From a phage: a DNA stretch of 64,000 nucleotides. Location of the stretch: assembly GCA_027468165.1 (NCBI GenBank), contig GCA_027468165.1_3951.1. One strand, written 5' to 3'. Below, one piece after another: positions 15,366 to 19,119 of the stretch. Under the pieces are notes generated by a model. The model had not been told where the DNA came from. It did no database searches and worked only from the letters and a program-made list of their open reading frames with translations. A program made the position numbers and the translations under genes. Position 1 is the stretch's first letter; each line of letters begins with the position of its first letter.

Positions 15366-16541
15366 ATGGCAGTAGGTGAAATTCAAATTAGTGCCTTGCC
15401 ACAAGCGGCCTTACCAATTGATTTGAGTGATATCTTCCATCTTAAGCAAGGTGTTGAGGATAAAAGATGTACGCTTGAACAATTGTTAGCACCTCACGCA
15501 TCTTTGAGGAATAACCCTCATGGTGTAACTAAATCACAAGTTGGTCTTGATAATGTTATTAACTCTCTACAATTAGTTGCAGCTAATAACTTGTCAGACA
15601 TTGTGAATGTTGCTGAGGCAAGAGCGAATCTGCAAATTATGTCTTCAGATGAAGTGAACAGTTTAATTAAGAGACATATCGACGACAAAAGCAACCCACA
15701 CAATACAACTAAAGCACAGGTTGGGTTAAGTAATGTTCAGAACTGGACAACATCAAACCTGTACAATGAAGATGCTGATAAGTATGCTACCGCGAGAGCA
15801 GTGAATAATTTATACAAAGCTATCCAAGCATCATATCCAGTAGGGACTATTCATCTATCTGTTAACTCTACTAATCCATCTACTTACTTGCTTTGTGGGG
15901 GTACTTGGGAGTTAGTATCTAAAGGTAAGGCACTAGTTGGTTATGATACAGATTCTAGACCTGTTGGTTCAACGTTTGGTTCTCAGACTGTAGCATTAAC
16001 AAATAATAATTTACCGGCGCACACCCACTCTATCTATTTAACAGGTGGTGGCCATACACACTCTGCAAGTGTATCTATCTCCAGTTTTGATTATGGTTCA
16101 AGAAGTACATCAACTTTCGATTATGGTACGAAGGCAACCGATGGTGCTGGTGCTCACACTCACACTTTTAGTGGCACGACAAGTAATGCTGGTAACCACA
16201 ACCATAGAGTACCACTGAGAGGTAATGATAGGAGTGGGTGGAATGCTATTACCGCGTCTGCTGATGCTGGGGTTGGTAACGCTTCGTATACTGATTTAGC
16301 AGGTGCTCACACCCATAGCTTCTCAGGCACAACTGCATCATCTGGTGCTCATAGCCATACTGTTGCAATTGGTGCTCATAGCCACACTGTTAGTATCGGT
16401 TCACACAGTCATACTGGCACTGTTACTGTTTCTAGCTCAGAGCATACGCACTCAGGCACATCTGGCTCTGTTGGTGGTGGTCAGGCTTTCAGTGTTGAGC
16501 AGCCATCTTTTGTAGTATATGTATGGCAGAGAACAGCTTAG
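15366..16541 (+). CDS. Tail fiber protein with C-terminal HxH repeat tip domain
   Basis: Repeated AHTHS/AHSHT/GHTHS motifs; C-terminus ...AFSVEQPSFVVYVWQRTA resembles the C-terminus of the next gene. Confidence 0.6.
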   Translation: MAVGEIQISALPQAALPIDLSDIFHLKQGVEDKRCTLEQLLAPHASLRNNPHGVTKSQVGLDNVINSLQLVAANNLSDIVNVAEARANLQIMSSDEVNSLIKRHIDDKSNPHNTTKAQVGLSNVQNWTTSNLYNEDADKYATARAVNNLYKAIQASYPVGTIHLSVNSTNPSTYLLCGGTWELVSKGKALVGYDTDSRPVGSTFGSQTVALTNNNLPAHTHSIYLTGGGHTHSASVSISSFDYGSRSTSTFDYGTKATDGAGAHTHTFSGTTSNAGNHNHRVPLRGNDRSGWNAITASADAGVGNASYTDLAGAHTHSFSGTTASSGAHSHTVAIGAHSHTVSIGSHSHTGTVTVSSSEHTHSGTSGSVGGGQAFSVEQPSFVVYVWQRTA

Positions 16542-16587: not shown

Positions 16588-19119
16588 ATGGCAGATTACA
16601 AATTGAGTCAATTAAACTCAATCGACACAATCCGTTCAGATGACCTTCTTCATGTCAGAGTTAAAAAGAGACCTGAAATGCTGGGTGATGAAGACCGTCG
16701 AATGACCTATCAAGACTTTTTAGCATCTTTTAAGCTTGAAAGATTTGTTCAGATTGCTGGTAGTAATATGACAGGTGACTTAGGGATTGTTAAGTTACTT
16801 TATGGTGGTAAGGCAGTCTTTGACCCAACAGGCTCTTCTGAGATTACTATTGGGGATGTTTTAAAGACTTTTAAAATCAACGCAAGCGGCCTTAAACTAA
16901 CTATTGCAGATGCTTCAAGGTCGGCAACTGTTTATCATACTCTGAATAAGCCAAGTCCTAATGAACTTGGGATGAGAACTAATGAAGAGAATGATGCAAG
17001 ATATGCAAGGCTTGCTATTACAAACACATTCTCTGGAACTCAGAACATTCAAGGTGATGCTAACTTACTTCGCCTTAGAAACCAAAATGCAAACAAAGCA
17101 CAATATATTGAAGGTGTAAACCTAGATGGTTCGGCTAGATGGTGGGTTGGTATTGGTAGTAATGGCTCTGACGAAGTAAAGCTGTACAATAACAAATACA
17201 ACACAGCAGTGATTGTTGCAAACAATATCTCTGTGAGTAGGTCTTTAGCAATCACTGGTCAAGTTCAACCATCAGATTTCTCTAACTTAGATGCTAGATA
17301 CTTTACTCAGACAGTTGCTAATCAGAGATTTGCACAGTTAGCTGCTAATAACAATTTCACTGGTACTAACACTTTTAGCAGAAATCTAACTATCATTAGT
17401 GACAGTGCTGCTTTAAGGTTGAAAAATGCAACATCTAGTTCCCTATTTATTCAGGGAGTTAACTCTCAGAATGCCAACAGATGGTATGTAGGGAACGGTG
17501 ATAACACCGCCTCTGTGTTACTACACAACTATGTATACAATTCAAATATTAGGCTCGATAATGGATATATCTCAGTCAACCAGAATTTCAGAATCACTGG
17601 TCAAGTTCAACCTTCTGATTGGACTAACATCGACTCTAGATACATTCCGGTAGGAACTTTGAGTAATCTTGCTAAACTAAGTGATGCAAACACTTTCAGG
17701 TCTTCACAAGTAATTCTCAAAGATGAACTATCGTTACAGCTAAGAAACACTGTTCAGGATAAGCCACTATACCTTGCTGGTTATAACGCTGATAATGTGA
17801 GAAGGTGGTTCATCGGGAATGGGGAGCCAGCAGACCCAACTAAACTCATTATTTACAATGATAGGACTGGTACTGCTATTTTCATGCAAGATGACTTCTT
17901 GCTGAACAAAACAGTCAGAATTGCTGGTCAAGTACAACCTTCTGATTGGACTAACATTGATGGTCGATACTATAACAAGTCATCAGCAGATAATAGGTAT
18001 CTAAGAGTAAGAAGCACTGGATTTAACACCAGCGGTGTGGATAAATGGGCTAAGATTGCAACTGTCACCATGCCACAAACAACATCAACAGCAGTAATCG
18101 AGTTGTTTGGTGGGGCTGGGTTCAACTTTGGTGCATATGACCAAGCCTGTAAAACAGAAATTGTTCTTAGAACAGGTAATAACAACCCAAAAGGATTAAA
18201 TGTTGTTGCATGGAAAAACTCACCAAATGGTGTTGTGACGGAAATTGGGTATGTTAACACATCTGGCGATAATTATGACATCTATTGCAAAGCTACTCGT
18301 TATCAAAATGCTACGACAGCTAGGGTTCAGTCATCAGATAATGCAACAGTACAACTGTTTGCAACCCCAGAGACATACGATAATGCTCCAGATGACTATG
18401 TTGCTGGGACAATTGCTTATTATTATACTAGTCTCTTGAAACCAACCCCTTCAGATATTGGTGCATACACTAAAGGAGAAACTGACCAGAAGATTGCACA
18501 GGCAATTAGTGACTCTACAGACCTGAATAAAATCTACCCAGTTGGTATTGTAACGTGGTTTAACAGTAATGTTGACCCTAACACAGCGTTGCCTGGGTTA
18601 ACTTGGACGTATCTGAACAATGGTGTTGGTAGAACTATCAGAATCGCAGCAGCAAATGGTTCAGATGTTGCTACAACTGGTGGTTCAGATTCTGTAACGT
18701 TATCTGTTGGTAACTTACCTTCACACACGCATAGTTTCTCTGCTACCACGTCGTCGTTTGATTACGGCACTAAAACCACGAATAACACCGGGGCGCATAC
18801 GCACAGTGTGAGCGGTACAGCCGCAAGTGCCGGAAACCATACTCATAGTGTCAAAGGCGCATCAGCAGAAAGACGGTACACATCAAGTGGGTCAACAAAT
18901 GAGGTAGTGGCTGCGGTCAATATGAATACAAGTGCTGCAGGAGCGCACACTCATAGTGTCAGCGGCACAGCTGCATCTGCAGGTGCTCACGCACATACTG
19001 TCGGTATTGGTGCTCACACCCATACAGTTAGTGGTAACACTGGTGGTACAGGTTCTGGTTCAGCATTTAGTGTTACTAACCAGTTCTACAAGTTGATGGC
19101 TTGGGTAAGAACTGCTTAA
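16588..19119 (+). CDS. Large tail fiber protein with internal ~110 aa repeats and C-terminal HxH repeat tip
   Basis: 843 aa; three to four repeats containing ITGQVQPSD(F/W)(S/T)N(L/I)D.RY; C-terminal AHTHSVSGTAASAG repeats; C-terminus ...AFSVTNQFYKLMAWVRTA. Confidence 0.65.
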   Translation: MADYKLSQLNSIDTIRSDDLLHVRVKKRPEMLGDEDRRMTYQDFLASFKLERFVQIAGSNMTGDLGIVKLLYGGKAVFDPTGSSEITIGDVLKTFKINASGLKLTIADASRSATVYHTLNKPSPNELGMRTNEENDARYARLAITNTFSGTQNIQGDANLLRLRNQNANKAQYIEGVNLDGSARWWVGIGSNGSDEVKLYNNKYNTAVIVANNISVSRSLAITGQVQPSDFSNLDARYFTQTVANQRFAQLAANNNFTGTNTFSRNLTIISDSAALRLKNATSSSLFIQGVNSQNANRWYVGNGDNTASVLLHNYVYNSNIRLDNGYISVNQNFRITGQVQPSDWTNIDSRYIPVGTLSNLAKLSDANTFRSSQVILKDELSLQLRNTVQDKPLYLAGYNADNVRRWFIGNGEPADPTKLIIYNDRTGTAIFMQDDFLLNKTVRIAGQVQPSDWTNIDGRYYNKSSADNRYLRVRSTGFNTSGVDKWAKIATVTMPQTTSTAVIELFGGAGFNFGAYDQACKTEIVLRTGNNNPKGLNVVAWKNSPNGVVTEIGYVNTSGDNYDIYCKATRYQNATTARVQSSDNATVQLFATPETYDNAPDDYVAGTIAYYYTSLLKPTPSDIGAYTKGETDQKIAQAISDSTDLNKIYPVGIVTWFNSNVDPNTALPGLTWTYLNNGVGRTIRIAAANGSDVATTGGSDSVTLSVGNLPSHTHSFSATTSSFDYGTKTTNNTGAHTHSVSGTAASAGNHTHSVKGASAERRYTSSGSTNEVVAAVNMNTSAAGAHTHSVSGTAASAGAHAHTVGIGAHTHTVSGNTGGTGSGSAFSVTNQFYKLMAWVRTA

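What the first reader, a model, noticed from the sequence alone, without database searches (positions are those of the whole stretch)
16990..17970. Internal ~110 aa tandem repeats in the large tail fiber
Three to four repeats, each ending in (I/R)(T/A)GQVQPSD(F/W)(S/T)N(L/I)D.RY, recur with a period of about 330-340 nt (DNA copies near 17254, 17594 and 17921, sharing TCACTGGTCAAGTTCAACC). This indicates a shaft built from duplicated domains and a possible substrate for length variation by recombination.
Basis: seen in the sequence. Interest (0 to 1): 0.4.

Follow-up and report, generated by a model that had tools for sequence, protein, structure and literature searches.

The report
Three tandem pyramid domains in tail fiber
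The long tail fiber gene of this Felix O1-like phage really does contain three tandem ~105-residue copies of a known fiber-shaft domain; the architecture is already published, and its main peculiarity is that each copy behaves as a swappable cassette bounded by conserved linkers.

Summary
The 843-aa gene at 16588-19119 (+) holds three tandem units: aa 137-240, 248-354 and 355-463 (nt 16996-17976). They are 36-45% identical pairwise (E 1e-21 to 1e-24), and each ends in ITGQVQPSD..N.D.RY. I found no fourth unit by sequence.

Each unit is a Pfam PF20744 domain and is homologous to the T7 gp17 "pyramid" domain (PDB 4A0T/7BOZ). The gene is the Felixounavirus long tail fiber, the ortholog of Bas63 gp27 and Sf14 gp53. 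Their cryo-EM papers already describe repeated, unexpectedly variable shaft domains, so the feature itself is known.

What I add:
- **Copy number.** It is three, at fixed positions, in every complete ortholog examined across three genera. Rare relatives have 2, 4 or 5 units.
- **Ancient alleles.** Unit cores have saturated synonymous divergence in 78-91% of gene pairs, against dS 0.27-0.48 in the flanks.
- **Reassortment.** Core alleles reassort independently between phages whose backbones are about 96% identical.
- **Conserved linkers.** Conserved 70-105-nt linkers separate the cores.

This pattern indicates in-register cassette exchange by recombination, with occasional out-of-register events that change length. 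It does not fit in-situ missense drift. What the core variability does for the phage remains inferred.

The parts
16588..19119 (+). Long tail fiber gene (843 aa), ortholog of Bas63 gp27 and Sf14 gp53
   Evidence: ORF. Full-length match to PHROG 4277, tail fiber. Best nucleotide hits are Felixounavirus tail fiber genes. Synteny wedge - short fiber - long fiber - holin - thymidylate synthase matches.
16588..16995 (+). Conserved N-terminal baseplate-binding region (aa 1-136), ending in the NEENDARY half-motif that precedes unit 1
   Evidence: Amino-acid identity is 0.89-1.00 among 17 non-redundant genes. It forms a single allele class across 35 orthologs. It has no Pfam match and no similarity to the units. 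The AF2 model of this part is unusable, with pLDDT about 30.
16996..17307 (+). Unit 1 (aa 137-240), PF20744 / T7 gp17 pyramid-like domain; variable core about 17038-17247
   Evidence: HMM and Pfam matches. Core amino-acid identity is 0.36-0.53 among relatives. Nine allele classes.
17248..17352 (+). Conserved linker 1 (aa 221-255: ..ITGQVQPSDFSNLDARYFTQTVANQRFAQL..), containing the 19-nt motif at 17252-17270
   Evidence: Amino-acid identity is 0.86-0.91 and synonymous-codon identity 0.64-0.88. Median dS is 0.48, against saturated dS in the cores. Identity-switch points pile up at both of its edges.
17329..17649 (+). Unit 2 (aa 248-354); variable core about 17368-17577
   Evidence: Direct phmmer hit of aa 275-344 to T7 gp17 (4A0T, E 1e-4). 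Thirteen allele classes.
17593..17673 (+). Conserved linker 2 (aa 336-362), containing the 19-nt motif at 17594-17612
   Evidence: Amino-acid identity is 0.85-0.93 and median dS is 0.46. Identity-switch points cluster at 17578-17607 and 17638-17697.
17650..17976 (+). Unit 3 (aa 355-463); variable core about 17698-17907. This allele has no close relative among the cultured phages sampled
   Evidence: Best identity among the sampled orthologs is 49%. It forms its own class among 16. Related alleles exist in the partial proteins P0004 and P0013.
17908..17976 (+). Linker 3 (aa 441-463), less conserved, containing the degenerate motif copy at 17921-17939
   Evidence: Amino-acid identity is 0.70-0.75 and median dS is 0.97.
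18013..18471 (+). Middle domain (aa 476-628), a non-homologously swapped module. Most relatives carry a T7 tip-like PF12604 domain here
   Evidence: Identity to most orthologs is 0-15%. Twelve allele classes. PF12604 scores only E 0.12 in the window, against 2e-13 to 9e-33 in SP116, Sf13 and UAB_69. No PDB sequence match.
18526..19116 (+). Conserved collar (Gp10_C-like) plus HxH needle and tip resembling T4 gp37, with a variable segment at about aa 741-800
   Evidence: PF21939 and PF03335 matches. PDB 2XGF at E 6e-17. Conservation profile.

Best explanation
The region encodes three tandem, anciently duplicated copies of a ~105-residue beta-sheet domain. The domain is Pfam PF20744 and is homologous to the pyramid domain of the T7 gp17 fiber.

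**Structure (inferred by homology).**
- In the homotrimeric fiber each unit is inferred to form one rigid beta segment of the shaft.
- Each unit ends in a conserved linker, ITGQVQPSDxxNxDxRY plus about 15 residues. This corresponds to the "triple alpha-helix and turn" seen between beta domains in the Bas63 cryo-EM map.
- The array sits between the conserved baseplate-binding N-terminus and a swappable middle domain. A T4 gp37-like HxH needle follows.
- Three units is the standard build across Ounavirinae.

**Evolution (shown by sequence comparison).**
- The unit cores are old, deeply diverged alleles.
- The linkers and the rest of the gene share the recent ancestry of the roughly 96%-identical genome backbone.
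- Unit alleles reassort independently among phages.

**Mechanism (inferred).**
- Homologous recombination between co-infecting relatives crosses over in the conserved linkers and exchanges unit cores in register.
- Rare out-of-register crossovers between linkers delete or insert units, giving 2, 4 or 5 copies.

**Selection (inferred, not shown).** Diversity this old and this well maintained implies selection on the exposed faces of the units. Host-surface recognition is the most likely cause; evasion of a defence system is the alternative.
For: **Repeats are real**
-.

**Domain identity**
- PF20744 scores 101, 71 and 60 bits against a cut-off of 21.7.
- A profile of 25 units hits T7 gp17 residues 366-436 (E 8e-8) and Mu fiber protein S, 5YVQ (E 3e-3).
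- The AF2 model shows 5-7 antiparallel strands per unit plus short helices in the linkers, with core pLDDT 70-94.
- The only significant Foldseek PDB hits are 4A0T and 4A0U, at probability 1.0.

**Orthology and architecture**
-.
- Published structures: PMC12609058 and PMC11821841.

**Fixed copy number**
- Three units at the same positions in all complete orthologs from GenBank and IMG/VR except S19cd.

**Ancient alleles and mosaicism**
- Among 35 orthologs the N-terminus forms 1 class, but unit 1 has 9 classes, unit 2 has 13, unit 3 has 16 and the middle domain has 12. The same unit-2 class is found with different unit-1 and unit-3 classes.
- JN01 is about 91-95% identical in units 1-2 but 46% in unit 3. 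KEP2 unit 2 is nearly identical to UAB_69 unit 2, while their unit 1s are about 46% identical.
- dS is above 1 or undefined in 78-91% of pairs for the cores. Median dS is 0.27-0.48 in the N-terminus, linkers 1-2 and collar.
- Identity-switch points fall only at linker edges and never inside the cores.
- The backbone is 96% identical in nucleotides to pEP20 and JH2, yet the pEP20 repeat region is 44.5% identical in amino acids.

**Length variants**
- S19cd has 2 units, with the crossover inside a 57-nt linker. Its middle-domain allele follows a unit 3 in P0013.
- P0032 has 5 units and P0033 has 4, both on 77-87 kb contigs with identical synteny.
- P0032 units 3-5 are closest to alleles that sit at position 1 in three-unit fibers, at 55-67% identity.

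**Recombination proficiency**
- Bas63 recombines with homologous donor DNA at about 30% (PMC11482910).
Against: - The trimer could not be modelled. The monomer model is only moderate (mean pLDDT 67.8, pTM 0.34), and the fold match has a low TM-score (0.34).
- The Bas63 authors liken the domains to the T4 gp34 rod rather than to the T7 pyramid. I could not reproduce a gp34 match (none; E about 0.5).
- Recombination is inferred from mosaic patterns. No crossover was observed.
- The clustering of switch points at linker edges partly follows from the conservation pattern itself.
- The 2-unit variant rests on one GenBank record and could be an assembly artefact.
- Paralogous linkers within one gene share only 19 exact nucleotides, which is poor substrate for intragenic unequal crossing-over.
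- No data link unit alleles to host range. Published host-adaptation mutations in a related fiber map to aa 497 and 534, in the middle domain and not in the units (PMC6669636).
Confidence: 0.8

Rival explanations
1. The unit cores vary because beta-helix regions tolerate missense mutations. On this view the diversity arose in place by relaxed constraint or rapid point mutation, without recombination. This is the first option offered in the Bas63 paper.
For: - Cores are far less conserved than linkers.
- The authors of PMC12609058 list this as one possibility.
- The fold is maintained despite 25-50% identity.
Against: - Synonymous sites in the cores are saturated in 78-91% of pairs, while flanking dS is 0.27-0.48. 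In-place missense drift would leave dS like that of the flanks.
- Discrete allele classes reassort between genomes.
- Identity switches abruptly from above 93% to about 50% at the linkers.
Confidence: 0.05
2. The array is a dynamic tandem repeat whose main behaviour is frequent copy-number change by unequal crossing-over. This would tune fiber length within populations.
For: - Copies share a conserved junction with a 19-nt exact match.
- Variants with 2, 4 and 5 units exist.
Against: - Paralogs are only 36-45% identical in protein and 65-74% identical over 80 nt at the junction. Tandem Repeats Finder detects nothing.
- All complete orthologs examined across three genera have three units at identical positions, with one exception.
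- The Bas63 study also found no variation in repeat number among ICTV Felixounavirus species.
- The extra units in P0032 are 36-63% identical to one another, so they are not recent duplicates.
Confidence: 0.08
3. Cassette exchange does occur, but the diversity of the unit cores is maintained because they are targets of a bacterial anti-phage defence or another neutralising factor. On this view they are not used for host-surface recognition.
For: - The authors of PMC12609058 propose this as a possibility.
- The ancient, balanced alleles fit any frequency-dependent selection.
- The known receptor-binding parts, the middle domain and the needle tip, lie elsewhere in the protein.
Against: No defence system that senses a fiber shaft is identified here or in the papers read. 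Nothing in the sequence data separates this reading from host recognition.
Confidence: 0.15

Closest known systems
Long tail fiber of Felixounavirus Bas63 (gp27) and Mooglevirus Sf14 (gp53), from cryo-EM studies (PMC12609058, PMC11821841)
   Same: - Orthologous gene in the same synteny.
- Same layout: conserved N-terminal baseplate-binding domain, repeated beta domains separated by helical linkers, and a T4 gp37-like HxH needle.
- The Bas63 paper reports five beta-helix repeat domains, with repeats 2-5 unexpectedly variable and repeat number constant. By my inference this maps onto the conserved N-terminal domain, units 1-3 and the middle domain.
   Different: - The window carries a distinct allele combination. 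Its unit 3 has no close cultured relative, and its middle domain is not the PF12604 type.
- Neither paper identifies the repeats as PF20744 or T7 pyramid homologs unit by unit, mentions recombination, or reports the 2-, 4- and 5-unit variants.
T7 gp17 C-terminal pyramid domain (PDB 4A0T, 4A0U, 7BOZ)
   Same: - Sequence homology of each unit core to gp17 residues about 366-436.
- It is the top and only significant fold hit.
- In most Ounavirinae, unit 3 is followed by the T7 tip-like PF12604 domain, as in gp17.
   Different: - T7 has one pyramid domain at the fiber end. Here three lie in tandem, internal to the fiber, and are followed by a further collar and needle.
- The ITGQVQPSD..N.D.RY linker is specific to Ounavirinae in IMG/VR.
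- The window's own post-unit domain is not PF12604.
Mosaic T-even fiber adhesins (gp37/gp38), in which conserved motifs flank hypervariable segments and are thought to mediate recombination (from my own knowledge of Tetart et al. and Trojet et al.; not re-read here)
   Same: The design principle is the same: short conserved DNA segments bracket deeply diverged segments, which allows modular exchange between related phages.
   Different: - The fold is different and so is the location, shaft rather than adhesin tip.
- Here the exchanged modules are whole structural domains in a tandem array.
- Receptor contact by these units is not demonstrated.
Mu tail fiber protein S (gp49, PDB 5YVQ)
   Same: Weak profile match of the unit to residues 352-441 (E 3e-3). 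The Sf14 paper also notes a resemblance to Mu gp49.
   Different: Mu has a single copy, the similarity is marginal, and Mu fibers need a separate chaperone.

Membership tests
Pfam PF20744 (gp37_trimer) | Each unit scores above the family's gathering threshold of 21.7 bits | tested here: met
   Units scanned separately score 101.2, 70.6 and 60.2 bits. The N-terminal 139 aa gives no hit. The whole protein gives 3 stretches at E 1.5e-66.
T7 gp17 pyramid domain | Sequence homology to gp17 residues about 371-447 | tested here: met
   phmmer matches unit 2 aa 275-344 to 4A0T at E 1e-4. The 25-unit profile matches 7BOZ residues 366-436 at E 7.8e-8.
T7 gp17 pyramid domain | Same fold: an extended antiparallel beta-sheet forming one face of a trimeric pyramid | tested here: inconclusive
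   The monomer AF2 model shows a beta-meander per unit. Foldseek's only hits with E<=0.001 are 4A0T_A and 4A0U_A, at probability 1.0; further chains of the same two entries follow at E 0.003-0.005. TM-score is only 0.34 and rmsd about 10 A, because a 3-unit monomer was compared with a pyramid-plus-tip chain.
T7 gp17 pyramid domain | Intertwined homotrimer | not testable with these tools
   Only monomer prediction is available. Trimeric fibers are seen for the orthologs by cryo-EM (PMC12609058, PMC11821841).
T7 gp17 C-terminal module (pyramid plus tip) | The pyramid is followed by the PF12604 tip domain | tested here: not met
   In the window PF12604 scores only E 0.12 over 27 profile positions. 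The feature is met in the orthologs SP116, Sf13 and UAB_69, at E 2e-13 to 9e-33.
Ounavirinae long tail fiber (Bas63 gp27 / Sf14 gp53 orthologs) | Synteny, conserved N-terminal baseplate-binding domain, three PF20744 units, C-terminal Gp10_C collar and HxH needle | tested here: met
T4 gp34 rod-type beta-helix repeats (the comparison made in the Bas63 paper) | Detectable sequence or fold similarity to gp34 (PDB 4UXG, 5NXH) | tested here: inconclusive
   No gp34 chain appears among the profile hits at E<=1. 4UXG appears only at E 0.5-0.7 in Foldseek. The monomer model is a poor basis for this comparison.
Unstable tandem repeat (length-variable by unequal crossing-over) | High nucleotide identity between copies, and copy-number polymorphism among close relatives | tested here: not met
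   Tandem Repeats Finder finds nothing. Junctions are 65-74% identical over 80 nt, with a 19-nt exact core. Copy number is 3 in all complete orthologs examined but one.

The most novel reading that the evidence does not exclude
The conserved helix-and-turn linkers may be more than structural necks. They could work as built-in recombination joints that let Ounavirinae shuffle a deep pool of ancient pyramid-domain alleles independently at each shaft position, and occasionally add or drop positions.

The exposed faces of the units would then be specificity determinants themselves, either lateral contacts with LPS or O-antigen or escape from a fiber-sensing defence. On this reading host specificity is encoded combinatorially along the shaft and not only at the tip.
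Probability: 0.3. Interest if true: 0.45.

Novelty: already known. Interest (0 to 1): 0.22.

Why it matters
As a feature it is ordinary. The domain is in Pfam, and the repeated and variable shaft of the Felixounavirus long fiber was described structurally in 2025.

The modest added value is evolutionary. The variability that puzzled the Bas63 authors is not missense drift. It reflects ancient alleles exchanged as cassettes across conserved linkers, with rare 2-, 4- and 5-unit fibers.

If the unit surfaces contribute to host specificity or defence evasion, these natural joints mark where fibers of Felix O1-type therapeutic and diagnostic phages could be re-engineered. They would also explain why near-identical Felixounaviruses differ in host range.

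Tried and rejected
- **DNA repeat finders.** Tandem Repeats Finder found nothing at the locus, because the copies are too diverged.
- **Whole-protein self-BLASTP.** It returned only the identity hit. The units had to be compared pairwise.
- **A fourth, N-terminal unit.** It was rejected by sequence with an HMM, Pfam and hhalign (probability 0.8%). AF2 of aa 1-250 was uninformative for aa 1-146, with pLDDT about 30. The Bas63 structure suggests that a structurally similar, conserved first beta domain may exist there.
- **The search for homologous proteins.** It returned only 31 proteins, mostly partial, so orthologs were taken from GenBank and IMG/VR loci instead.
- **Gene conversion between paralogous junctions.** Identical codons among same-residue codons run at 58-71%, and the 19-nt identity has a post-hoc probability of about 0.003. 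This is suggestive only, and I did not pursue it.
- **VpaE1_ev78 and VpaE1_ev108 as lab-evolved recombinants.** No paper was found. They are probably independent isolates, so I dropped the lead.
- **The window's middle domain against PDB sequences.** No hit.
- **Literature gaps.** The T7 gp17 structure paper is not held in the library. A search for PF20744 returned nothing.
- **Chance or low-complexity explanation of the repeats.** Rejected.
Full report
**1. The observation**

The finding lies inside one ORF, 16588-19119 (+), 843 aa.

That is 3 matches against 0.02 expected.
- An 80-nt direct-repeat family is spaced 342 and 327 nt apart.
- GQVQPSD occurs at aa 224, 338 and 447.
- The three ~105-aa units are 36-45% identical, with E 1e-21 to 3e-24.
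- An HMM of the units finds exactly three copies in the whole window, at aa 137-240, 248-354 and 355-463, which is nt 16996-17976.

The "fourth" copy is only the half-motif NEENDARY (aa 132-139), which closes the N-terminal domain. That domain shows no similarity to the units by HMM, Pfam or hhalign (0.8% probability). Tandem Repeats Finder sees nothing, because the copies are old.

**2. What the units are**

- Each unit is a Pfam PF20744 ("gp37_trimer") domain, scoring 101, 71 and 60 bits against a cut-off of 21.7.
- Unit 2 alone hits the T7 gp17 C-terminal crystal structure (4A0T).
- A 25-unit profile (A1) hits T7 gp17 residues 366-436 at E 8e-8, and more weakly Mu fiber protein S (5YVQ, E 3e-3).
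- An AF2 monomer model of aa 130-470 gives a 5-7-strand antiparallel meander for each unit, with core pLDDT 70-94, followed by short helices in the linker.
- In Foldseek the only hits at E<=0.001 are 4A0T_A and 4A0U_A; the B chains of the same entries follow at E 0.003-0.005.

So the units are homologs of the T7 "pyramid" domain. In T7 this is an intertwined trimeric beta structure (description in PMC11680406).

**3. What the gene is**

- The window is a Felixounavirus (Felix O1-like) genome. The backbone is about 96% identical in nucleotides to pEP20 and JH2.
- The gene matches PHROG 4277 over its full length.
- Its neighbours are baseplate wedge, 100-aa protein, 391-aa shorter fiber, this fiber, holin, thymidylate synthase. 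The same order is found in every relative fetched.
- The C-terminus carries a Gp10_C-like collar and HxH repeats homologous to the T4 gp37 needle (2XGF, E 6e-17).

It is therefore the ortholog of the "longer" or "long" tail fiber of Sf14 (gp53) and Bas63 (gp27). Both were resolved as 630 A fibers folded back along the sheath (PMC11821841; PMC12609058).

**4. What is already published**

- It reports that repeats 2-5 are unexpectedly variable among Felixounavirus species while repeat number is constant.
- It offers three explanations: mutation tolerance, host recognition, or a defence target. It does not mention recombination.
- The Sf14 paper notes T7 gp17-like domains.

By my inference, their repeat 1 is the conserved N-terminal beta domain, repeats 2-4 are my units 1-3, and repeat 5 is the middle domain.

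**5. Copy number**

- In 10 GenBank loci and 29 IMG/VR loci, every complete ortholog has three units at the same positions. These loci span Felixounavirus, Suspvirus and Mooglevirus, and some genomes appear in both collections.
- The IMG/VR scan used the linker motif [IV][TNA]GQV[QK]P[SNT][DS] and retrieved only Ounavirinae-sized contigs.
- Salmonella phage S19cd has two units (695 aa). Its unit 2 linker runs straight into a middle-domain allele that follows a unit 3 in P0013. The crossover lies in a 57-nt stretch of the linker. The joint is unique to that record, so an assembly artefact is not excluded.
- A search of 1.84 billion representative proteins found 261 hits, most with 1-2 domains.
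- The top two hits are Ounavirinae-type fibers with five units (P0032, 1015 aa) and four units (P0033, 901 aa). Both sit on 77-87 kb metagenomic contigs with the same gene order.
- P0032 units 3-5 are closest to alleles that occupy position 1 in three-unit fibers. Unit 4 is 67% identical to the unit-1 allele class of JN01, KEP2 and SP116, the class the window's unit 1 belongs to. The array has therefore grown by out-of-register insertion of cassettes.

**6. The cassette pattern**

Along the protein, relatives are 90-100% identical in aa 1-140 and 621-730. They are 20-55% identical in the three unit cores, and 0-15% in aa 481-600.

*Allele classes and reassortment.*
- Among 35 orthologs the N-terminus forms one class at >=75% identity. 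Unit-1 cores form 9 classes, unit-2 cores 13, unit-3 cores 16 and the middle domain 12.
- Classes reassort. Unit-2 class 2 occurs with three different unit-1 classes and three different unit-3 classes.
- JN01 matches the window at about 91-95% in units 1-2 but at 46% in unit 3.

*DNA-level profile.*
- At the DNA level, identity drops from above 93% to about 50% within 30-60 nt at the linkers.
- Among 17 non-redundant Felixounavirus genes, amino-acid identity is 0.25-0.54 in the cores and 0.85-0.93 in linkers 1-2. Synonymous-codon identity is 0.42-0.76 across the core bins (mostly 0.42-0.67), against up to 0.83-0.88 in the linker bins.

*Synonymous divergence.*
- Nei-Gojobori dS is above 1 or undefined in 78-91% of pairs for the cores. 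Median dS is 0.27 in the N-terminus, 0.48 and 0.46 in linkers 1 and 2, and 0.41 in the collar.

*Identity-switch points.*
- All 810 identity-switch points found fall at segment boundaries, almost all of them at linker edges; none falls inside a unit core.

Saturated synonymous divergence inside genomes that are otherwise about 96% identical cannot come from in-place missense drift. It indicates old alleles moved by recombination, with the linkers as crossover sites. Bas63 recombines with homologous donor DNA at about 30% (PMC11482910), so the genus is recombination-proficient.

**7. How it most likely works**

*Shown.*
- There are three homologous PF20744, T7-pyramid-like domains in tandem.
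- The count is conserved.
- The linkers are conserved.
- The core alleles are ancient and reassort.
- Rare length variants exist.

*Inferred.*
- Each unit forms a rigid trimeric beta segment, and each linker forms a helical neck. This rests on homology to T7 and on the Bas63 map.
- Crossovers in the linkers swap cores in register between co-infecting phages and rarely change copy number.
- The faces of the units are under diversifying or balancing selection.

Host-surface recognition seems the more likely driver and defence escape the alternative, but nothing here discriminates between them. The only host-adaptation mutations I found for a related fiber map to aa 497 and 534, in the middle domain (PMC6669636).

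**8. Verdict**

The feature is already described, both as a Pfam family and in two cryo-EM papers.

The window contributes a new allele combination: a rare unit-3 allele and a non-PF12604 middle domain. My analysis adds the recombination-cassette reading and the 2-, 4- and 5-unit variants. That is useful, but it fits the long-known mosaicism of phage fibers. Interest is low to moderate.

Noticed in passing
window 18013-18471 (aa 476-628): The domain after unit 3 is replaced non-homologously between otherwise near-identical phages. Most Ounavirinae carry a T7 tip-like PF12604 domain here. The window, JN01 and KEP2 carry a longer domain with no Pfam or PDB sequence match; it hits PHROGs 3299, 21552 and 11029.
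   Followed up: partly
window 18808-18987 (aa ~741-800): There is a fifth variable segment inside the HxH needle, with amino-acid identity 0.18-0.49. It is flanked by conserved collar and C-terminal sequences and is probably the distal receptor-binding head.
   Followed up: no
window 15366-16541 (+): The upstream 391-aa shorter tail fiber shares the Gp10_C collar and HxH needle with the long fiber but has no PF20744 units. Tandem Repeats Finder reports a 27-nt repeat at 16332-16389, which corresponds to the HxH repeats.
   Followed up: partly
L004/L018 (Salmonella phage Si3), L026 (Escherichia phage EC6), L010 (Shigella phage vB_SflM_004): In these records the long fiber gene is split or truncated. 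Si3 has 453 + 311 aa with the break inside unit 3. EC6 has a 549-aa ORF. SflM_004 is fragmented into several short CDSs. These are either frameshift sequencing errors or genuine disruptions.
   Followed up: no
P0037 (3348 aa), P0038 (2080 aa), P0053 (1711 aa): These giant proteins carry 11-29 partial matches to the unit profile (roughly profile positions 25-94), some overlapping. They may be long arrays of a related but shorter beta repeat in unknown organisms.
   Followed up: no
L011 2950-3165 (Aeromonas phage ZPAH14, Chaseviridae): A 560-aa tail fiber of an unrelated phage family carries a single PF20744 unit without the Ounavirinae linker motif.
   Followed up: partly
window 17970-18260 (-): A 96-aa GTG-start ORF lies antisense inside the fiber gene. 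It is most likely a spurious ORF.
   Followed up: no
window 20000-44000 vs 17005-17997: The replication-module backbone is about 96% identical in nucleotides to Escherichia phage pEP20 and JH2. The repeat region of pEP20 is only 44.5% identical in amino acids, so whole-genome relatedness says nothing about fiber alleles.
   Followed up: yes
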